Below are positions 22,426 through 63,560 of a DNA stretch of 63,882 nucleotides, one piece after another. The stretch is taken from IMG/VR virus record IMGVR_UViG_3300033412_000012, positions 1-63,882 of that record; one strand, given 5' to 3'. Below the pieces are notes generated by a model that had not been told where the DNA came from, made no database searches, and saw only the letters and a list, made by a program, of their open reading frames with translations. The translations under genes were made by a program, and so were the position numbers. The stretch comes from a virus (taxonomy: Duplodnaviria; Caudoviricetes). Each line of letters opens with the position of its first letter. The first letter of the stretch is position 1.

Positions 22426-22455
22426 CAGGTCGAGGGCGACCACTCCCTCGACCTG
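22426..22455 (-). terminator. hairpin after tail tube gene
   Basis: CAGGTCGAGGG/CCCTCGACCTG 11-bp inverted repeat; U-tract weak. Confidence 0.5.
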
Positions 22456-25713: not shown

Positions 25714-25786
25714 GTCGGCACTCGTTTAACTAGTACCGACAGGGTTCCTCGGAGCGTTGGGGCTCCGAGGTCCAGCAAGCGCCGCC

Positions 25787-30501: not shown

Positions 30502-31029
30502 TCACACTTGCTCTTGCACGTACCCGGCTTGTACCTGCAAGTGGTACAGAGCCACCAGATGGCGGCACAAGCCCGCGATGCGCAGCGGGTTTTTCTTCGG
30601 CTCGGGCTGGTTCTTGGGCGCAAATCCCGTGTGAACGTCTTGCTCGCGGTTCGCTTTCAGGAAGTTGTCCACGTATTCGCTGCATTTGCAGCCGACACGG
30701 ACCGGGTTGTCTATTGAGCCGACGCGCTTCGGATCGCTTACCCCGTAATACTGGATGATAGTCTTGAACACCTTGCCGTCGGGTCCGATGACATCGACCG
30801 CCGAATCGATTTTCTTCATGAACGGCGTATAATCCCACTTCAGACCGGTCATGTTGAAGCGACTGGGCTTGCCTTGATTGTACGCGGCCGGCAGAATTTG
30901 CTCCGTGTTGTCTAGCAAGTCGGCCATTGCAAGCTCGGTGCGGCTCTCCTCCGCCCTTTTGTCGTCGTTATTTGAAGAAAGATCCACAATCTCGGACTGG
31001 TTCGGATCGGCCATGATATCAAACGGCAT
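30502..31029 (-). CDS. SWIM-type zinc finger protein (paralog)
   Basis: PVRVGCKCSEY...AGLCRHL. Confidence 0.75.
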   Translation of the reverse strand: MPFDIMADPNQSEIVDLSSNNDDKRAEESRTELAMADLLDNTEQILPAAYNQGKPSRFNMTGLKWDYTPFMKKIDSAVDVIGPDGKVFKTIIQYYGVSDPKRVGSIDNPVRVGCKCSEYVDNFLKANREQDVHTGFAPKNQPEPKKNPLRIAGLCRHLVALYHLQVQAGYVQEQV

Positions 31030-31312
31030 AGCTATTTCCTTTCTTGATATTTATCTTGGCCGGGATCACAGCCCAATTATACCAAACGTGCAAACCGCAC
31101 ACTAATTTGCCACGTAGCGGGACTACTTTTTCCAACAGTTTAGAAGCCTGCTTACGAAGTGAATCACACGATCGGCAAACGTTCGCCCTTCCATCAGGTT
31201 TGTCGCGCCGTCTCGAAAATTCAAGAACGCCCTTAACCTCAGTGCAACAGCGGCACCTCTTGTCGGTACGTGCTTCATCAACAGCGATTGATGCGGTGGA
31301 TTCGATGATCAT
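31019..31312 (-). pseudogene. degenerate HNH homing endonuclease
   Basis: CRCC...CRSC Zn finger joined directly to VVPLRGKLVCGLHVWYN...N..KGN; the catalytic DH is missing; low GC. Confidence 0.6.
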
Positions 31313-35406: not shown

Positions 35407-35435
35407 AGTATACCAGCGCAACACTATCCGTGCAA
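35407..35435 (-). promoter_or_regulatory. sigma70-type promoter
   Basis: TTGCAC-N17-TATACT with extended -10 TG. Confidence 0.7.
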
Positions 35436-35461: not shown

Positions 35462-35488
35462 CCTGAGGCCCGTCGGACGGGCCTCAGG
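35462..35488. terminator. perfect 13-bp inverted repeat, probable terminator
   Basis: CCTGAGGCCCGTC-G-GACGGGCCTCAGG. Confidence 0.6.
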
Positions 35489-37291: not shown

Positions 37292-37491
37292 AGCCGCTTT
37301 ACTTCGATTGAATAAGCAGGCACGCCGTCGACGTGAACGATGGCCGTCTTTCCTGGCTCGACGAACTCGATGACCGCTTTCAGCACGTCGCTGGTCACGT
37401 CTTGACCGCCGCCTCGAAACGTCAATCCGTCTTTCGATGGGGTCCCGGCGTGAATGCGCCCGGACAACGCCATTGTGGCCACGCGGATCAT
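37288..37491 (-). CDS. conserved small phage protein (LSGRIHAG...DVTSDVLKAV)
   Basis: AGGA RBS; ATGA overlap. Confidence 0.7.
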   Translation of the reverse strand: MIRVATMALSGRIHAGTPSKDGLTFRGGGQDVTSDVLKAVIEFVEPGKTAIVHVDGVPAYSIEVKRL

Positions 37492-39020
37492 TGCGGATTC
37501 CTATCGATGGTAGTGCTGTCAGTAGACGCTGGCGACAAGTCCAGCACGAATGAGGTGTTGCCACAGTCCCAGATACGCAGCCAGCCAGCCGCGTCCATAT
37601 TGGCATGCTCGGTCAAACCGGGATCGTACGACGCCAGCTTCTTGGCCAGCTCCGACTTGCGAAACCCGTAGCGGTGGTGGCGCCGCGCTGGATCAGACGA
37701 GCGGAAATACCAATAGTTCGGCGCCGAGTGCTGCACTTGCACAAAACCGGACTTGCCGTAGACATCGCCGTCTGACCAGCGCCGGTCGGCATAAGTCAGC
37801 AAGCGTTGCGGCGCGCGCACGGCGATGAAACACTTCAGGATCTTTTGCCAGCCGCCCGGCACCGACACGTGCGGCAACACCGCGTAGCGGCCCACGTTCC
37901 AGTCGCAGTCGGAGCGCCCGCCGGCAATCGACGGCCGGCCGAACGTGGCCACTGCGATCAGCTCCTCGCCCAGCACCAACCCATACCGGACTGGCGAGCC
38001 ATCCGCGCCCTGCAAGTGGTAGCGCTCCAGAAAGTCATGCGCGCGCCCGCGCTCGAGCAATTCGACCCGACACTGACGAGCATGCACGCGCCGCACGGCC
38101 GGGTCGCCAACCAGCCGCGCCAGTTTGGAGCGCACCACGGCCGGCCGATTCAGCCACTCGTCCTCGAAAATCGTGATCAGCCGATAGCCGGCCGCGTTGC
38201 AGCGCTCCAGCTTGTCCAGGTGCTTGCGCTTACCAACGCGCTGCTCCGAGTGCCAGTACAGCCCGCAGTACTCGATGGCGACGCGCTGCTCGGGCAGCAC
38301 GATGTCTAGCTCGAACGGCGCTATAATGATGCGGTCGCGCCGCACGACGGCGACCCCGAGAGACTCCAGGTAATCCGCGATGCTAGTCTCGGGCTTGGAA
38401 ATCGCACTGACGCACTTCGGGCAGTTGGCGCCCTGCGCATGGTCGCCGGCCCACTGCTCGAACACGCCGTGCTTGAGGCAGCGAATCTCGATGCGCGCAT
38501 TAATGCCTCGGTACACCGACCCGCCATAATCGTAGTCCGCGAAGTTGTCCGGGTGCGACTGGCGGGCGCGAGTCAGGAAGTGGTCTTTGTCGCGCGTCAT
38601 CCTGGTCGATAACTGCTCGGAGACGCGTCGGTAAGCCCCGGCGGCATGACGCTGGCGTGTCACTTCGGCCATCTGCGCCCGAACCTCGGGCGTGTATCGC
38701 GCCGCCATTTTGGCCTTGGACTCCACCGTCGCCAACGTGGCGGTCAACGTGGCCGCGATCTTGGCGCGCACCGCCGGATCGGATGCCTTCACGGCGGCAG
38801 CACAGCGCTGCGAGCAGCACTCCGCGTACCCCTTCCCAGCCGAAAGGAATCGGGTCTGGTTTCCGCAGTTCCGACAGCTGCCCTCTCCTGCACGGCGGAC
38901 GTGCTCGTCGTAGTAAGATTGGGGATCAACGTCGGAGTGACGCAGTCCGACGTGACGGCTCATATAAGCCGGGCGGACTGGATGGGAGCAGTACGGGCAC
39001 GGTATCGTCTGGTGGTCCAT
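37488..39020 (-). mobile_element. free-standing Hef-like homing endonuclease (Zn fingers, PD-(D/E)xK/Vsr-like nuclease, GNAT/Mom-like C-terminus)
   Basis: CPYC..H..H; CLKHG...CPKC; ELDIVLPE..VAIEYCGLYWH; TYADRRWS.G.VY...IWDCG. Confidence 0.8.
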
Positions 39021-39032
39021 AGTGGCAGGGCT

Positions 39033-39065
39033 GATAAAGTTCGGGGCGGATTGCTCCGCCCCGAA
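39033..39065 (-). terminator. intrinsic terminator after MCP
   Basis: TTCGGGGCGGA-GCAA-TCCGCCCCGAA followed by CTTTAT. Confidence 0.75.
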
Positions 39066-44375: not shown

Positions 44376-44472
44376 ATTGGGGACCTCGGAATGTGTCTTT
44401 GTACAGGTTCTAGGTCCGAATACGCCGAGGGCCGGTCGCCCGGCCCTCCTGTGAAACTAGCAGTCTCTCGAG

Positions 44473-46152: not shown

Positions 46153-46179
46153 ACAGAAGCGGGGCGACTAACGCCCCGC
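46153..46179 (-). terminator. intrinsic terminator
   Basis: GCGGGGCG-TTAGT-CGCCCCGC followed by TTCTGT. Confidence 0.55.
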
Positions 46180-47826: not shown

Positions 47827-50800
47827 CGCCGCTTACTCCCGCGTTGTTCGGTCTTGACGATGGTCGTCGGAGCCGCTGCTGACTTGGTGCGTTCCCGCAC
47901 TTCGCGCGCCGGATTCAGGCCCATGTACTGGCACGCCTTGGCGAACTCGTTGAACGCGCGCGTGACTTGCGCCCGGCGAGAAGCCGGAGCCTGATCGCCG
48001 AACTCCTCGTTGCAAGCGCGGTCGAGCTGGTCGTACTTCTCCCACAGACGGTCGAGTTGGTCGCGCGTGATTTTGGACTCGCGCCGAGCCGAATCGGACG
48101 GCGTCCAGATCGAGGTGTTGATTGCGCCTCGGCCGTGCATGTCGTCCCACCAAGCCACTGGAATGCGGCGCGCGCCGGCCAGTTGGTATTGAGTCAACTG
48201 CGGCGCGACGACCTGCGACTGCACGTCCGCGCCGAACTTGGCCTGCAAATCGCGGATGAACGCTTTGTTGTCCGTATAAGGTTGCCAACCGTGACTGCCG
48301 TCCTGATTGGCTTCGCGTTGCAACGATTCCTGCTGCGTCGAAAAGAAGTCGAACGCGGTCATAATCATGGCGCGCGTGACGGGCTCCAACGTCTCGAAAT
48401 CCGAGCGCGTGGCGAGCGACAGGATATCGTCGACCGAATACTCACCCGACAGACTGGACAGAATTTCTGCAACAGGCTTCCCGAAGAACGCCACCTGCAG
48501 CTCCTCGTCATCGGCGGACTTCAGGTCGGCCGGAGCTTGCGGCGCGGTTGCGGACCCGGGATTACCGACCGTGCCGGCGGTAGGGTCCGGCTGCACTTCC
48601 GCCTCCATCACGCCCGAGTCCAGATCGCCGAGGTAGGTGCCGATGACGCGTCCGTCGACACACGCAGTCGTCGTTTTGCCATCCTGCTCAAAAGTCGCGC
48701 CCGGATTAGCCGCCGCAATCTGCGACTTCCACTGCTCGTAGCCGCAAATTGTCACGGGCTCCTGGGTCTGCTCAGTGGATTCAGTCAGCATACGCAGCCC
48801 GGCGGATTTGACACCGGTTTTAGCGGCCTGCTCCAACAGCGCATCGAGACGCTGCTCAGTCCAGCGGTTGCTAGCCTTGCCTTCTGTCAGATTGCGCAGG
48901 ATGCGTTGCACTGACGCCTCGAACGAACGGCCGTAGCAGTAGACCGACGCGATCAGCTCGCGCATCTGGGCAAAACTCATGCCGTCGGTCGCTCCGGCAA
49001 TTTCGCGAATTCGCTCAGCGCCTTCCTTCTTGGCCAACTTGTGCGTGAAGTAGGCCAACCGACCCGCCAGCGGCAGCGATTTCACTTCTACTTTGGTGTC
49101 GAATCGGCCCGACCGCATCACGCGCGGCGGCAGACGCTCCGGATAATTGGTCGTGCCGAGCACCAGCACCCCGTTCATCTGGTCACCGCCGTCCATCAGC
49201 TCCAGCACCGCGTGCTCGTTGTAACTGCACACCTCGTCCATGTCTTCCATGACGACCAGCGCGCGGCGTTCGGGCTCGACTTCTTTGAATTCGCGCAGAC
49301 CAGTAACCACCAGTCCCATATTGCGCATGCCCATGAACACGACCGTATCCTGCGCCACGGCCGCTTCGGTGACTTGCTTGATCAGACACGACTTGCCCAT
49401 GCCGGGCTGGCCGAACATCAGCACGCCGCGCTTGTGGGTCAATCCCATTTCCTGGAACACATCAGCCAAGCCCCAGAAGCGATTGATTTCTTCGTGGATC
49501 GCGTTCAGCCGCTCGTCTTCGAACTGGAGCAACTCGTCCGAGTTGACGTCGATCTTTTCGAAGTAGATACCAGCCATCGACTCCTTGATCTGGTAGACGC
49601 CCGCCTCGAGCGTCGGGCGCGTGCGCCGGACCGTCGACAGCTGGTTACCGGAATCGGCGTATTGAACGAGTACGCGCTCGCGCTTGGTGGCCGCTTCGCA
49701 CAGCGCCTTGGAGGCCGTTGCAGGCGGCCGGGCGATGGTCCAGCAGCGCGGACCGGATTCCGTCTTGCCGATTTCACGGCCCTTGCCGTCGCCACCATCG
49801 ATGTAAGTCGACAGCGGGTTGCCGTCATCGTCCATCGACGTGTAAACGTCGGCATCGCCAACTTTGGTCTTGGCGATGTTGGCAGCCGCATCGTTGTCGT
49901 CCTGCGAGTTTTGCCAGTCGTCACGCGACGTGGTGTCGTCGAATGACGACTCGCCGGTCGGGACCAGCGACGCAGGCAATTGCACATCGGGTTCATTGCA
50001 ATCGACCGAGCCGACCGAAATGGTCTGCACTTGCCCGGTGGTCGGATCGCCGATGACGATGCCGATTTCGAGCGATTCGGCGAAGTCGTGTTCGAACACC
50101 CACGCTTGTTGAGCTTCGGATTGAGTGCCGAATGGCCCGCCGACCGGGCGCCGCGTCGCGCGGTCGATCACTGCGTAACGTTTCATGTTGGATTCCTTGG
50201 TAGGACGTTGATCCGGCTGATGCGGGGCCAGCTCCCGCTGCCATTCCTGTTCAGTCTCGCCCGGCACGGCGGCACTCGACGCCGTGGCCGGCGTGAACCC
50301 GAGCGCGGCCGAAGTCAGTTCGAACACCGTTCCCGAACTGGTCGCCGGGTCCCATGCCCCGATCAACCGGCCGTCCAGCAGCGCCTGTTCGACGCCGCCG
50401 TCGACCTTGCTGTAGACGATGCCGTCCGGAAACGACTTGCGCCACGTCTCGTAGTCTTCCATGTAGCCCATTTCGGACCCCGTGTAGACCGGACGCTCGT
50501 CGCCCTGGATGCCGCCCTCGGGCCACTCGGCGTCCTGCGGCAGGTCGGGCGACAACGGGATGCCGTCGATGGTCTGTTCCGGACCAGTGCCCATCGAAAT
50601 GCCACCCGCGACAGCCTCAGACGGACCCCCGGGGACACCCGGAGGAGGCCCTTCGCCCTCGGGCGGTACGAAGGTAGGGAGCGACTGGGGCGAGCCCGAC
50701 GAAGGGGCCGCGTCGGGCTCGCCGGCCGGCTCCAGAGCGGCGGACGACGGATCGGGCTGCGCCCCTTGCAGCGTGGCATTGGCGCGCAAGTAGGGAATGA

Positions 50801-52735: not shown

Positions 52736-52758
52736 GAGGCCCCGGCAATCGGGGCCTC
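52736..52758 (-). terminator. hairpin after nrdB
   Basis: GAGGCCCCG/CGGGGCCTC inverted repeat. Confidence 0.5.
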
Positions 52759-58965: not shown

Positions 58966-59138
58966 GTCTGTAACCCCAATGTTCAGACGTGTTATTGCGG
59001 AGTCTCAGCAAGTCCGAGGTGCACAAGTCTCGTTCCGCTGAGTGGTAAGACAGCTGATTCTGCTGCCATAGCGCGTCGCTGTCCGGAGGCGCGCGTGGCG
59101 TAATGGTTCATGCGAGTCGAGCGAGCCGACTCAATCGC

Positions 59139-59462
59139 TCAAAACGGAAGTTCGTCGTCGACCTCGATGGGCCGCTGATGGTGGAGACCGAAGCGCCCCG
59201 CACACACGCCCGAACGAGGGTCCAAAGCCGCCCGGATGCCGCAACCGGCAGTGCGACGGCAGTCAAACGGGTCGTCAGTCGGACGCGCCACAATCGACCA
59301 GTCATCGTCATCGCACTGGTCGGTCAACTTTGAGGCCAAATAGGTGGCGTATTGCCAAGTCTCGAACGTGCCGAGGTCTTCCCAGACAGCTGAGGAAGAT
59401 CCGATCAGGGCGTCGGTGGAATGATGATAGCGAGGTTGGGTCACGACGATGCAGTAAGCCAT
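59139..59462 (-). CDS. hypothetical early protein
   Basis: AGGAG RBS directly below a promoter. Confidence 0.65.
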   Translation of the reverse strand: MAYCIVVTQPRYHHSTDALIGSSSAVWEDLGTFETWQYATYLASKLTDQCDDDDWSIVARPTDDPFDCRRTAGCGIRAALDPRSGVCAGRFGLHHQRPIEVDDELPF

Positions 59463-59506
59463 GGTGTTCTCCTATAATGCCATCTGGTCGGCAGGACTAC
59501 AGACGG

Positions 59507-59535
59507 ATTATACCATGCGACAGCCGTACCTACAA
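59507..59535 (-). promoter_or_regulatory. sigma70-type promoter
   Basis: TTGTAG-N17-TATAAT with extended -10 TG. Confidence 0.7.
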
Positions 59536-59554
59536 GTACCAACCAACGCGAAAG

Positions 59555-59930
59555 TGGCATCAGGATGCCGTCTATAGAACGATTGCCCGCGAGACGGGGC
59601 AGTTCGAGGAGTGTGGTAGCGCGACCACGCAGGAGGACTTGCGCGCTCAGCGGGTACGGCTCAGCGCGGGGTTCGGACAGCACAAGCGGATAAACCGAGG
59701 GACCCCTAGGGGTCCCTCGTGCAACGCAACAGATTGGGCTGAGCGTTGCAATCCACTGCCATGTGCAGGTAGGCAGGACTCGCGACGGCCCGACAGGAAA
59801 CTCCGACGCACCACACGTCTTCGCCGCGAGGACCCGCCTCGTCACCACTCTGAAACTCGCAAAGCAGTGGCGAGGTCAAGTCCAGTACACCAACAGTTCC
59901 TACTAAACGAGTCAGACCACCGACTCACCA
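59555..59930 (-). ncRNA. candidate structured non-coding RNA, unassigned
   Basis: Nested helices whose mismatches read as G-U pairs on the minus strand; no credible ORF. Confidence 0.5.
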
Positions 59931-59936
59931 ATCCAG

Positions 59937-60194
59937 TCAACGCGCGTACTGCTTGTTCCGCAAATCGAGCCGCCGCTGGATCTCGAGCGCACAATCGGTA
60001 CAAGTAACACAGCCTGCTTCGACGCGCTCTTTTTCCACGATTGCTTCGTCGCACTCCAAGCAACGACCAAGATTGGCTACCAGCTGCGCCGCCAGTTGAA
60101 CGTTGACTTCCCGAATTCGACGCGCCAACTCGTCCACGTCTCGCCGCTGCATATTCTCAGCGTGCTCGATAACCTCGTCTGAATTCACGTCCAT
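59937..60194 (-). CDS. DksA/TraR C4-type zinc finger protein
   Basis: GRCLECDEAI..ER......CTDC; GAGGG RBS before MDVNS. Confidence 0.8.
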   Translation of the reverse strand: MDVNSDEVIEHAENMQRRDVDELARRIREVNVQLAAQLVANLGRCLECDEAIVEKERVEAGCVTCTDCALEIQRRLDLRNKQYAR

Positions 60195-60276
60195 GCCCTC
60201 GTTGTTCAAACCTTGATAAGAATGAGGGCCGCTCGCGGCGGCCCTCAAGTGCTGCTGCTACGGCTCGGTTCCTATA

Positions 60277-61575
60277 TTAATGCGGAACGTCGTCGAAGTT
60301 GGCTTCACGCGTCGCGGCTTGACATTCGGTCTCGTGGGCACAGGTGATGCAGTCCGGATGCATGTCGCCGCCGCCGCTCATGACTTCCGGGTTCTTGCCG
60401 AAGGCCAGATCGCGATCATCGGACGGGCATTCTTTGATCGGGATCGTAGTACGTCGCGAGCCCTCGTTGCGAGCGCGGTCGTCCTCACGCTCGTCACTGC
60501 CACGAGTCCGCGTGCGCGAGCTGCCGCGCTCTTCGGTGTCACGACTGCGAGTCTCGCGCCGGTCATCGTCATCGCGACCACGGCGCTCGTCCGTGCGGCC
60601 ACGAGGGCTAGCGCGCGAATCGTCGCGCGGCGGCGGACGGCGGTCATCGTCGTCGCGGTTGAGTGCACCGCCCCGGTCGTCATCGCGGTCGTCTCGTCCA
60701 CGTCCACCTCGGTCATCATCGCGGCTGCTGCGAGTCTCGCGCCGGTCGTCTCCCTCACGGCCACGCGAACGCGAGCTGCCTCGGTCGTCATCGCGACCAC
60801 GGCCGCGCGAACCGCGATCATCCTCGCCTGGATCGAACGCCGTCCCGCGCTCCGCCAGCAGACGAGCCACGAACTTGCGGAACGATGCCAAGTCGTCATC
60901 GCCGATGTAGGACTTCGACGGCTCGCCTTCGTCGTAGTAAACGCGCGACAACGGGTATTCTTCGAAGTCGCGCGGCAACTCCGGCAGTTCATAGTCGCGC
61001 AAGTCGAACCCCCACGACGCCGAGCCTTTGTTGCCGCCCGTGAAAGTCAGCTTCAGGCCCTTGGCCTCCACTTCGGGATTCATGACTTGACGCAGGTCGT
61101 CGCGGTCCAGACCGGCGATGAAAGTCTGGAACGAAATGAACACACGCGGCGACAGCACGATGTAGCTGGCTTCCTTGACGCGCAGATACTTGCTTTCTTC
61201 GGCGTTGGTCTTGAAAATGTAGCCCGTGATGACGCCTTCCTCGCGATTCTTGAACTGCCACGCCTTGCCGTACTTGGCATCCTCGAGCTTCTTGACTTCC
61301 TTGCAGATGCGGCAGTGCTCACCTTCACACGGGACCCGGCCGCCCATGTCCTTGCCGAGGTTGTGCATGTTGATGACCCGCGCCGCGCGCAGACGCTTCT
61401 TGCCGGTTTCGGCCGACACGTGCAAGTCCGGCCAGATGCGCATCGTGTACGTACCTTCGTCGAGAAACATCAGCGGCGTGGTCGGGCGGTCGCCACCGAC
61501 TTTCTCGGTGTACGCTTTCGCTTCGTCACGCATCCCCTCGAACAGGGATTCGTCGTCGTATTTACTGCGGGCCAT
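60277..61575 (-). CDS. single-stranded DNA-binding protein (gp32-like) with Arg/Asp-rich tail
   Basis: GTYTMRIWP...H...PC....C.IC Zn core; G..LKLT; long RD-rich region. Confidence 0.7.
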   Translation of the reverse strand: MARSKYDDESLFEGMRDEAKAYTEKVGGDRPTTPLMFLDEGTYTMRIWPDLHVSAETGKKRLRAARVINMHNLGKDMGGRVPCEGEHCRICKEVKKLEDAKYGKAWQFKNREEGVITGYIFKTNAEESKYLRVKEASYIVLSPRVFISFQTFIAGLDRDDLRQVMNPEVEAKGLKLTFTGGNKGSASWGFDLRDYELPELPRDFEEYPLSRVYYDEGEPSKSYIGDDDLASFRKFVARLLAERGTAFDPGEDDRGSRGRGRDDDRGSSRSRGREGDDRRETRSSRDDDRGGRGRDDRDDDRGGALNRDDDDRRPPPRDDSRASPRGRTDERRGRDDDDRRETRSRDTEERGSSRTRTRGSDEREDDRARNEGSRRTTIPIKECPSDDRDLAFGKNPEVMSGGGDMHPDCITCAHETECQAATREANFDDVPH

Positions 61576-63299: not shown

Positions 63300-63560
63300 C
63301 AAATATCGCGCGGTCGTGTTTCGCGTGCGTTCGCGCACCTACTCGCTCGCCCGCTCCTGCACGCCGCCGTGCGCGGAACTTCTGCCGATCAAATTTTTCC
63401 AAGTTACCAAGTTCAAAGAAATACCAAGGTCGCGCGCGCCCGCCCGCAGGAGCGGGCGCGCTCGCGCACGTAATGCGCTTACGCGTAGGAACGACCCCTT
63501 CCCCCAAACCCCCTCCCCCCACGACTCTGAAGTGCTCTCCGCCTCTCGAACCACGAATAG
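63300..63560. other. candidate replication origin/control region
   Basis: Divergent intergenic region with a 13-bp inverted repeat around AT-rich CCAAG repeats, and four C-tracts. Confidence 0.35.

What the first reader, a model, noticed from the sequence alone, without database searches (positions are those of the whole stretch)
59555..59930. Large multi-branched non-coding RNA candidate of unknown class
Seen: about 370 nt with no credible ORF in an otherwise tightly packed genome. On the minus strand, a long-range helix GGACUUG/CAAGUCC (59883-59877 with 59641-59635) encloses UCGCCAC/GUGGUGA. An inner GCGGGU/AUCCGC multiloop holds CUCGCGGCG/CGUCGCGAG, CUGCC/GGCAG, UGCAACGC/GCGUUGCA and a perfect 24-bp palindrome (59696-59719). 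A GUGUGGU/ACCACAC pseudoknot is possible. Mismatches resolve as G-U only on the minus strand, which indicates RNA-level selection. I could not match it to tRNA, tmRNA, RNase P, SRP or group I/II intron signatures.
Basis: partly seen in the sequence, partly recalled or inferred. Interest (0 to 1): 0.7.

Follow-up and report, generated by a model that had tools for sequence, protein, structure and literature searches.

The report
Phage intergenic hairpins, terminator and promoter
The flagged stretch is a real non-coding, hairpin-rich gap in a soil phage genome, but it reads best as an ordinary gene boundary (structured tail and terminator of one gene, then the promoter of the next), not as one large new RNA.

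Summary
The window is a 63.9-kb, 61% GC viral contig (a myovirus by its tail sheath gene) with nearly all genes on the minus strand.

**What holds up**
- The finding sits in a 474-nt gap (59463-59936) between a DksA-like zinc-finger gene and a 107-aa gene.
- The minus strand folds better than shuffles (z -3.5).
- No Rfam, tRNA or tmRNA match.

**What does not**
- The excess structure lies only in the 5' 249 nt (z -4.9). The 3' 196 nt have none (z -0.3).
His architecture is 15.6 kcal/mol worse than the minimum free energy fold.

**What the parts look like**
- The 24-bp palindrome belongs to a set of 13 intergenic perfect hairpins, most with T-rich tails on the minus side (here GUUUAU). These look like terminators.
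- An extended -10 promoter (TGGTATAAT, 59515-59507) lies 45 nt before the 107-aa gene.

**Open point**
- This palindrome lies 217 nt after the nearest stop codon; 11 others lie 16-43 nt after one. A 190-245-nt terminator-ended small RNA is therefore possible (about 0.2).

No homologues could be fetched, so covariation is untested. Transcription of the region is not shown.

The parts
59937..60248 (-). Upstream gene: DksA-like C4 zinc-finger protein. 103 aa from TTG. More likely about 83-85 aa from an internal start near 60194/60188.
   Evidence: phrog_54 E 1.5e-5. The only homologue, P0006, is 83 aa and covers 81% of the query. No Pfam hit.
59909..59926 (-). H1: 7-bp hairpin 10 nt after the stop codon, followed by GUUUAG.
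   Evidence: -10.1 kcal/mol, z -3.8 for a window chosen after the fact. The 50 nt after this stop fold to -11.4, which is unremarkable against genic 50-mers (mean -13.8).
59830..59883 (-). H2: 22-bp imperfect hairpin with several G-U pairs, more stable on the minus strand.
   Evidence: -31.6 kcal/mol, z -4.74, 0 of 200 shuffles. Plus strand -23.7. Only 0.77% of 60-nt minus-strand windows reach -31. GGACUUG/CGGGUCC has p = 0.98.
59756..59830 (-). Weak or ambiguous pairings H3 (CUCGCGGCG/CGUCGCGAG) and H4 (CUGCC/GGCAG).
   Evidence: Segments located. Local folds z -0.92 and -0.35. H3 has p = 0.018 and H4 p = 0.88 in the 376-nt ensemble.
59720..59750 (-). H5: 8-bp hairpin UGCAACGC/GCGUUGCA, abutting the palindrome.
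   Evidence: -14.1 kcal/mol, z -4.27. p = 0.97. Equally stable on the plus strand (-14.4).
59690..59719 (-). H6: perfect 10-bp stem with a 4-nt loop (the 24-bp palindrome) plus tail GUUUAU. Intrinsic-terminator type.
   Evidence: -22.6 kcal/mol, z -5.56. It is one of 13 intergenic perfect hairpins whose minus-side tails are T-rich (GTTTATCC; compare CTTTATCA at 39040 and TTCTTATC at 60223) and whose plus-side tails are not. The tool's terminator scan did not list it; I count 4 T in the first 8 tail bases, where that scan asks for 5.
59642..59668 (-). H7: imperfect palindrome carrying two copies of GCTSAGCG. A third copy lies at 59737-59745.
   Evidence: -15.7 kcal/mol, z -3.98. 3 of the window's 6 matches to [CG]GCT[CG]AGCG lie in the gap. 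Natural variant 59663 A>G weakens it on the minus strand (-15.7 to -12.5) and not on the plus strand.
59546..59695 (-). Spacer between terminator-type hairpin and promoter. No excess structure.
   Evidence: 59500-59695 folds at z -0.30, with 74 of 200 shuffles as good. All 5 natural substitutions on X7's listed contig for this stretch (59517-59835) fall at 59570-59682.
59507..59535 (-). Predicted sigma-70-type promoter of the 107-aa gene. Extended -10 TGGTATAAT at 59515-59507, possible -35 TTGTAG at 59535-59530.
   Evidence: TGNTATAAT occurs twice on the minus strand of the 63.9-kb window (59515 and 31084) and never on the plus strand. TGGTATACT occurs at 35415. In my gene map all three are intergenic, and the two exact copies lie about 45 nt before a start codon (my reading). 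The tool's own scan missed it because the -35 has fewer than 4 of 6 matches.
59139..59473 (-). Downstream gene (107 aa, no family) with ribosome-binding site AGGAG at 59473-59469 and ATG at 59462.
   Evidence: Homologues P0004 (99%) and P0005 (64%). Contigs from three metatranscriptome studies cover it: 59129-59453, 59130-59600 and 59114-59480.

Best explanation
The 474-nt gap is a composite gene boundary read on the minus strand, not one RNA gene.

1. After the DksA-like gene comes a roughly 245-nt non-coding, hairpin-rich tail (H1, H2, H5). It ends in a perfect 10-bp GC-rich hairpin followed by GUUUAU (H6, the 24-bp palindrome). H6 is the phage's usual terminator-type hairpin. It stops or attenuates transcription coming from the helicase / 432-aa / DksA-like genes and protects the RNA 3' end. 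The 22-bp H2 may serve as a stabiliser or a double-strand-specific processing site.
2. About 150 nt with no excess structure follow. They carry three GCTSAGCG words that could be a protein-binding site.
3. An extended -10 promoter (TGGTATAAT) restarts transcription about 45 nt before the 107-aa gene.

Shown: no coding capacity, local hairpin stability, membership of the palindrome in a repeated hairpin class oriented to the minus strand, and rarity and placement of the promoter word.

Inferred: that the hairpins act as terminators or stabilisers, that the promoter fires, and any role for H2.
For: - Non-coding.
- Structure lies in the 5' part only: z -4.86 for 59688-59936 against z -0.30 for 59500-59695.
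- Hairpin class: 25 perfect hairpins (stem 8 or more, loop 3-8) in the window, 13 of them intergenic.
- Of the 12 intergenic hairpins with a minus-strand gene upstream, 11 lie 16-43 nt after its stop codon.
- Leaving out the hairpin at 2667, whose gap may be coding, the other 12 average 3.25 T in the first 8 tail bases on the minus side and 1.5 on the plus side (my count).
- The tails of 59696, 39040 and 60223 read GTTTATC, CTTTATC and TTCTTATC.
- Promoter: TGNTATAAT occurs twice on the minus strand, never on the plus strand, both times in gaps before genes. With one or two mismatches allowed, 6 of 8 minus-strand hits are intergenic (one of them, at 31021, sits at a gene start) against 0 of 4 plus-strand hits.
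The best fold containing them is -154.9 against the minimum of -170.5.
- Phage transcriptomes are known to hold many terminators and short terminated RNAs (PMC11512511, passages read).
Against: - H6 lies 217 nt after the nearest stop. It is the only one of 12 such hairpins that is not within 43 nt, so the boundary model leaves an unusually long tail unexplained.
- Many of these hairpins sit 18-50 nt before the next start codon with no room for a promoter. They must be leaky, so calling them terminators is an inference.
- H6's U-tract is short, and the tool's terminator scan did not list it.
- The 249-nt tail is among the most stable stretches of the contig: 1 of 1027 windows with GC correction, 12 of 1027 with GC and G+U correction. 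That would also fit a functional RNA.
- One RNA-library contig (X11, 59130-59600) runs about 100 nt upstream of the predicted transcription start.
- No transcript ends were mapped.
Confidence: 0.58

Rival explanations
1. A discrete small RNA of about 190-245 nt on the minus strand, running from roughly 59930-59880 to about 59690. It would contain H2 and H5 and end at the H6 terminator. It could be cut from the 3' untranslated tail of the DksA-like mRNA or made from a promoter I could not recognise.
For: - H6 is the only one of 12 terminator-type hairpins that does not follow a stop codon within 43 nt. This implies about 217 nt of non-coding transcribed sequence ahead of it.
- 59688-59936 folds at z -4.86, and minimum free energy fold and centroid coincide.
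- It ranks 1 of 1027 windows (GC corrected) or 12 of 1027 (GC and G+U corrected).
- H2 gains 7.9 kcal/mol from G-U pairs on the minus strand.
- X7's listed contig for this stretch shows 0 changes in 59683-59835 (153 nt) against 5 in 59517-59682 (166 nt).
- Intergenic small RNAs under 250 nt have been reported in other phages (PMC11512511).
Against: - No promoter was found. The nearest word, TGGTGTACT (about 59896-59888, my reading of the minus strand), lacks the key A of the -10 hexamer.
- Without H6 the body is only z -1.89, with 9 of 200 shuffles as good.
- No homologue, so no covariation.
- Short U tail.
- The 0-against-5 split of substitutions is not significant at these numbers.
- Other parts of the contig are as structured.
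Confidence: 0.22
2. One reading: one roughly 370-nt multi-branched RNA (59930-59555). It is closed by GGACUUG/CAAGUCC, has an inner multiloop, and has a GUGUGGU/ACCACAC pseudoknot.
For: - All named segments exist and can pair.
- The whole stretch folds at z -3.53 on the minus strand.
- GUGUGGU/ACCACAC has p = 0.94 as a nested long-range helix in the 376-nt ensemble.
Against: - The closing and multiloop helices have p 0.02 or less, and forcing them costs 15.6 kcal/mol.
- The 3' half has no excess structure.
- A terminator-type hairpin sits in the middle.
- The 59663 A>G variant breaks an H7 pair on the minus strand.
Confidence: 0.04
3. A DNA-level element rather than an RNA. It could be a replication origin or protein-binding region next to the helicase and replication genes, or a relic left at a mosaic junction or by gene decay.
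For: - It lies beside the helicase gene.
- 3 of the window's 6 [CG]GCT[CG]AGCG words lie within about 100 nt.
- The perfect palindrome, H5 and H7 are as stable on the plus strand as on the minus strand.
- The 59663 A>G variant is tolerated on the plus strand or in duplex DNA.
- A contig in run X11 follows the window up to 59600 and then continues for 155 letters unlike it.
Against: - No AT-rich stretch: GC is 0.53-0.66 across the gap.
- No turn in cumulative GC skew here.
- Only three short repeats, noticed after the fact.
- No similarity in any minus-strand frame to 50,697 phage records at E up to 1.
- The loose end is one low-depth contig and may be an assembly chimera.
Confidence: 0.11
4. 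An unannotated small protein gene, for example the 57-aa ORF 59706-59879 (minus strand) whose stop codon lies in the loop of the palindrome.
For: - That frame is open for 72 codons up to the hairpin.
- Its codon score is the least negative of the three longer minus-strand ORFs inside the gap (-4.5).
Against: - TTG start with no ribosome-binding site, by my reading.
- Negative codon score.
- Among 1.84 billion representative proteins there were only 2 marginal hits (E 7e-5 and 1e-4), in many short stretches, to proteins of 1247 and 495 aa.
- No tblastn match in phages.
- An open frame of 72 codons has a chance of about 0.1 per frame at this GC content (my arithmetic).
Confidence: 0.03

Closest known systems
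Intrinsic (factor-independent) terminators and 3' hairpins between phage genes, as mapped in Pseudomonas phage transcriptomes. PMC11512511: abstract and passages read. PMC9163698: search listing only.
   Same: GC-rich perfect stem-loop followed by a T-rich tail on the coding strand. It recurs between genes of one phage, and the H6 tail matches the tails of the other hairpins.
   Different: The U-tract is short (GUUUAU). This copy sits 217 nt from the nearest stop codon, not 16-43 nt. Termination was not measured.
Extended -10 (TGnTATAAT) sigma-70 promoters. General knowledge, recalled.
   Same: Exact TGGTATAAT about 45 nt before the start codon. The word is rare and confined to gaps on the coding strand.
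   Different: The -35 is weak (TTGTAG). The host and its sigma factor are unknown, and activity was not tested.
Phage-encoded intergenic or UTR-derived small RNAs under 250 nt (PMC11512511, passages read).
   Same: Non-coding, ends at a terminator hairpin, and the size would fit.
   Different: That paper defined them from mapped transcript starts and ends. Here there are no mapped ends, no promoter and no conserved relatives.
RNase III processing hairpins between early genes of phage T7.
   Same: H2 is a roughly 22-bp near-continuous double-stranded stem in a gap of a multi-gene transcript.
   Different: No cleavage data and no sequence relation. This is resemblance only.
Large structured RNAs often found in phages or prophages, such as GOLLD and ROOL. 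Names recalled; I did not check which of them are in the Rfam copy searched.
   Same: A sizeable structured non-coding stretch in a phage.
   Different: No family in the Rfam library matched at gathering scores. The only hits at E up to 10 were Atu_C8 and GNAS-AS1_3. The stretch is much shorter than those RNAs, and there are no tRNA genes nearby.

Membership tests
Any Rfam 15 family (4227 models) | Covariance-model score at or above the family's gathering score | tested here: not met
   0 matches in the whole window. In E-value mode on 59300-60100 the best hit was Atu_C8 at 17.1 bits against a cut-off of 50, E = 2.
tRNA / tmRNA | ARAGORN cloverleaf or tmRNA call | tested here: not met
   0 genes in the window.
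Intrinsic terminator | GC-rich stem-loop | tested here: met
   10-bp perfect stem with 8 G-C pairs and a 4-nt loop. -22.6 kcal/mol, z -5.56.
Intrinsic terminator | U-rich tract directly after the stem on the transcribed strand | tested here: inconclusive
   The tail GUUUAUCC has 4 U in 8 by my count. The tool's scan asks for 5 of 8 and did not list this hairpin. The tail matches those of other intergenic hairpins of this phage.
Intrinsic terminator | Lies shortly after the end of a gene, oriented with it | tested here: not met
   The orientation fits, but it lies 217 nt after the nearest stop. 11 of the 12 hairpins tested lie 16-43 nt after one.
Intrinsic terminator | Transcripts end there | not testable with these tools
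   Only assembled contigs of RNA libraries were available. They cannot show transcript ends.
Extended -10 sigma-70 promoter | TGnTATAAT at a suitable distance before a gene | tested here: met
   TGGTATAAT at 59515-59507, ATG at 59462. 2 exact copies on the minus strand, 0 on the plus strand.
Extended -10 sigma-70 promoter | Transcription starts about 7 nt downstream | not testable with these tools
   Contigs from RNA libraries cover 59114-59480 and 59129-59453. One reaches 59600, beyond the predicted start.
Discrete small regulatory RNA | Own promoter or processing site, plus a terminator | tested here: inconclusive
   A terminator-type hairpin is present. No promoter was found by the tool or by word search.
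Discrete small regulatory RNA | Structure conserved with compensatory changes in relatives | not testable with these tools
   No relative's DNA could be fetched. The relatives known from protein searches are on record only from Logan assemblies, apart from one 1967-nt JGI contig that my metagenome scan did not return.
Protein-coding gene | Codon usage like the genome's genes, or homologues | tested here: not met
   ORFs in the gap score +0.02 to -0.61 per codon. No family hits for the two longest ORFs tested. No real homologue.

The most novel reading that the evidence does not exclude
The 5' two-thirds of the gap (about 59930/59880 to 59690, minus strand) encodes a new, terminator-ended structured RNA of about 190-245 nt. 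It would be made by a soil/rhizosphere myovirus lineage that has almost no sequenced relatives, and it sits between a DksA-like transcription factor gene and an early-type promoter. Its 22-bp G-U-containing hairpin and tandem 3' hairpins would be the functional core.
Probability: 0.2. Interest if true: 0.45.

Novelty: new member of a known kind. Interest (0 to 1): 0.22.

Why it matters
As read here it is ordinary. It gives a first sketch of the transcription signals of a poorly sampled soil phage lineage: a terminator-type hairpin class with YTTTATC tails, and TGGTATAAT promoters. These can guide annotation of this lineage.

If the long structured tail turns out to be a discrete RNA, it would add a phage small RNA from a lineage with no cultured relative closer than 26-28% protein identity. 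That would still be a new example of a known kind, not a new principle.

Tried and rejected
**Homologue hunts that found nothing**
- blastn of 59400-60000 against 50,697 phage records.
- Five viral-contig scans: the 432-aa protein, the 107-aa protein, the palindrome, alignment A1 and the helicase.
- Both metagenome-contig scans: the C-terminal alignment A2 and the palindrome.
- One genome-contig scan.
- Earlier notes of this scan.

**Protein searches gave only near-identical or few relatives**
- 432-aa protein: 3 hits.
- 107-aa protein: 2 hits.
- DksA-like protein: 1 hit.
- Their contigs could not be fetched.

**Nearest cultured phage**
- Xanthomonas phage phiXF1, at 26-28% protein identity.
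- It is tightly packed around the homologous gene, with no comparable gap.

**RNA libraries**
- Three metatranscriptome runs from three studies gave no contig in 59610-59939. They do cover the 107-aa gene, and one run covers the DksA-like gene.
- Coverage of the phage is patchy and shallow (depth about 2-5).
- Contigs cannot show absence, so this says nothing either way about transcription of the region.

**Other points**
- The 30-letter loose end at 59600 has no match in the window with up to 3 mismatches.
- The 21-nt direct repeat 59486-59506 / 59768-59788 (81%) did not extend into a convincing duplicated promoter.
- A test for hairpins in the 50 nt after every stop codon was too crude. It cut hairpins short and relied on my rough gene map, so I drew nothing from it except that H1 is unremarkable.
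- Covariation analysis (R-scape) was not run, because there is no alignment to run it on.

Full report
**Setting**

The window is a whole IMG/VR virus record of 63,882 nt. It is linear, and CheckV puts it at 53% complete. GC content is 61%. It carries tail sheath, major head, portal, protease, ribonucleotide reductase and helicase genes, nearly all on the minus strand. Runs that hold the stretch come from soil and rhizosphere. The nearest cultured phage is Xanthomonas phage phiXF1, at only 26-28% protein identity.

**The observation**

The finding (59555-59930) lies in a 474-nt gap, 59463-59936.
- Upstream, in the direction of transcription, is a DksA-like zinc-finger gene at 59937-60248 (phrog_54, E 1.5e-5).
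- Downstream is a 107-aa gene of no known family at 59139-59462.

The gap is non-coding by every test I could apply.
- All 9 ORFs of 30 aa or more that overlap it score +0.02 to -0.61 per codon on a codon model trained on the contig's long ORFs. Neighbouring genes score +0.17 to +0.49.
- Base composition by codon position shows no steady gene-like pattern across the gap, by my reading.
- The two longest ORFs hit no Pfam or PHROG family.
- The best candidate ORF (57 aa, 59706-59879) has no real homologue among 1.84 billion representative proteins.
- None of the three minus-strand frames matches 50,697 phage records at E up to 1.

The palindrome is perfect.

**Is it more than chance?**

Partly.
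On the plus strand it folds at -151.7 (z -2.77, 1 of 100).
- Against the contig itself (676 windows of 376 nt, regressed on GC), 6 of 676 minus-strand windows are as stable, against 175 of 676 on the plus strand. The single most stable minus-strand window of the contig is 59691-60066.
- The signal is not spread over the interval. 59688-59936 gives z -4.86. The same stretch without the palindrome gives z -1.89, with 9 of 200 shuffles as good. 59500-59695 gives z -0.30, with 74 of 200.
- The minus strand here is 60% G+U. With that in the regression, the 249-nt unit drops from 1 of 1027 windows to 12 of 1027.

In the ensemble of the 376-nt RNA:

| Helix | Pair probability |
|---|---|
| Closing helix GGACUUG/CAAGUCC | 0.019 |
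| Multiloop helix GCGGGU/AUCCGC | 0.000 |
| CUCGCGGCG/CGUCGCGAG | 0.018 |
| Local alternative GGACUUG/CGGGUCC (extends hairpin H2) | 0.98 |

The best structure that contains all his helices is -154.9 kcal/mol, against the minimum of -170.5. What survives is a row of local hairpins:
- H1, 59926-59909, -10.1 kcal/mol.
- H2, 59883-59830, -31.6 on the minus strand against -23.7 on the plus strand.
- H5, 59750-59720, -14.1.
- H6, the palindrome, -22.6.
- H7, 59668-59642, -15.7.

These windows were picked after seeing the fold, so their z-scores are flattering.

**What the palindrome is**

A scan for perfect hairpins (stem 8 or more, loop 3-8) finds 25 in the window, 13 of them intergenic.
- Leaving out the one at 2667, whose gap may be coding, the other 12 intergenic hairpins average 3.25 T in the first 8 tail bases on the minus side. 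On the plus side they average 1.5, which is about background (my count).
- The tails of 59696, 39040 (after the major head gene) and 60223 read GTTTATC, CTTTATC and TTCTTATC.
- Of the 12 with a minus-strand gene upstream, 11 lie 16-43 nt after its stop codon.

So the palindrome belongs to the phage's own terminator-type hairpin class on the minus strand. Many of these hairpins lie only 18-50 nt before the next start codon. They must therefore let part of the transcription through, and 'terminator' here means attenuator or 3'-end protector. This is inferred, not measured.

**What lies at the 3' end of the gap**

- TGNTATAAT occurs twice on the minus strand and never on the plus strand, at 59515 and 31084. 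TGGTATACT occurs at 35415.
- In my gene map all three are intergenic. The two exact copies lie about 45 nt before a start codon (my reading).
- With looser matching, 6 of 8 minus-strand hits are intergenic, one of them (31021) at a gene start. Of 4 plus-strand hits, none is.
- I read 59535-59507 as the promoter of the 107-aa gene. AGGAG at 59473-59469 is its ribosome-binding site.
- Contigs from RNA libraries of three studies cover that gene: 59129-59453, 59130-59600 and 59114-59480. Such libraries can contain DNA, and the runs were found using this stretch. This shows presence in RNA libraries, not a transcript map.

**Natural variation**

- One DNA run (X7) gave a contig over 59517-59835 with 5 changes: 59570, 59572, 59663, 59673 and 59682. 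That is 1.6%. The 7 other listed contigs of that run show 45 changes in 2271 nt, or 2.0%.
- All five changes lie in 59517-59682 and none in 59683-59835. This is a weak hint of constraint on the H3-H6 part.
- The change at 59663 sits in H7. It turns U-A into U-G on the plus strand and A-U into A-C on the minus strand. H7 goes from -15.7 to -12.5 on the minus strand and is unchanged on the plus strand.
- The whole-gap fold is hardly changed on the minus strand (-199.2 to -200.0) and improves on the plus strand (-179.2 to -184.9).

**Best reading**

I read the gap as a composite boundary (confidence 0.58):
- a long structured tail of the DksA-like transcript, ending at H6;
- a spacer that carries three GCTSAGCG words (3 of the window's 6 matches);
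- a promoter for the next gene.

**The loose thread**

H6 is 217 nt from the nearest stop codon, the single exception among 12. Something non-coding and unusually stable fills that space. The most interesting explanation my evidence allows is a 190-245-nt small RNA, either derived from the 3' tail or independently transcribed (0.22). The lack of a promoter and of any comparative or end-mapping data keeps it there.

**Comparison with what is known**

- Nothing in Rfam 15 matches, and there is no tRNA or tmRNA.
- The parts resemble intrinsic terminators, extended -10 promoters and the short terminated RNAs seen in phage transcriptomes. For Pseudomonas phage 201phi2-1 the paper reports 67 promoters, 132 terminators and 11 small RNAs under 250 nt, 3 of them intergenic (PMC11512511, abstract and passages read).
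- H2's 22-bp stem recalls the RNase III sites of phage T7. That is from memory and is only a resemblance.

**Limits**

- No relative's DNA could be obtained, so covariation is untested.
- Only assembled contigs of RNA runs were available, so transcript ends and levels are unknown.
- The gene map used for distances is my own crude one.

Noticed in passing
window 60277-61575 (-): A 432-aa protein with a conserved N-terminal domain (CEGEHCRICKE motif), a linker of about 150 aa rich in Arg, Asp and Ser, and a conserved Cys/His C-terminus ending FDDVPH. No Pfam or PHROG family. Only 3 homologues among 5.8 billion clustered proteins, and 26% identity to a hypothetical protein of Xanthomonas phage phiXF1.
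   Followed up: partly
window 59507-59515, 31076-31084, 35407-35415 (-): A small set of extended -10 promoter words (TGGTATAAT twice, TGGTATACT once), all in gaps before minus-strand genes. Two share CGTYCTGTAGT just downstream.
   Followed up: partly
window 22426-22455, 25747-25770, 35462-35488, 39040-39065, 44427-44448, 46159-46179, 52736-52758, 60223-60247: A class of perfect GC-rich hairpins 16-43 nt after minus-strand stop codons. Their tails are T-rich on the minus side, and they often lie too close to the next gene for a promoter. They are probably leaky terminators or 3'-end protectors.
   Followed up: partly
window 59139-59462 (-): The 107-aa gene of unknown function is recovered in contigs of rhizosphere metatranscriptome libraries from three different studies. 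Its homologues are P0004 (99%) and P0005 (64%) only.
   Followed up: partly
window about 59600: In RNA run X11 one contig ends exactly at 59600. Another record follows the window to 59600 and then continues for 155 letters unlike it. The first 30 of those letters match nothing in the window. This may be a mosaic junction in a relative or an assembly chimera.
   Followed up: partly
window 50677-50736: The most stable 60-nt window of the contig on both strands (-40.8 and -39.3 kcal/mol, a 13-bp stem) lies inside the 1047-aa gene.
   Followed up: no
window 63427-63486: Tandem strong hairpins (-38.6 kcal/mol on the minus strand) in the gap upstream of the helicase gene. This is the second most stable 60-nt window on the minus strand.
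   Followed up: no
window 37488-39020 (-): A 510-aa HNH / homing-endonuclease-like gene (phrog_3339, E 1e-91) directly downstream of the major head gene and its hairpin.
   Followed up: no
window 59486-59506 and 59768-59788: A 21-nt direct repeat at 81% identity. One copy is the start of the 107-aa gene's leader and the other lies inside the structured tail. The alignment does not extend convincingly.
   Followed up: yes
window 59072-60007 (+): A 311-codon frame with no stop on the plus strand runs across the whole gap. Its codon score is strongly negative (-0.36 per codon for the 225-aa ORF) and it has no family hit, so it is taken as chance in GC-rich DNA.
   Followed up: yes
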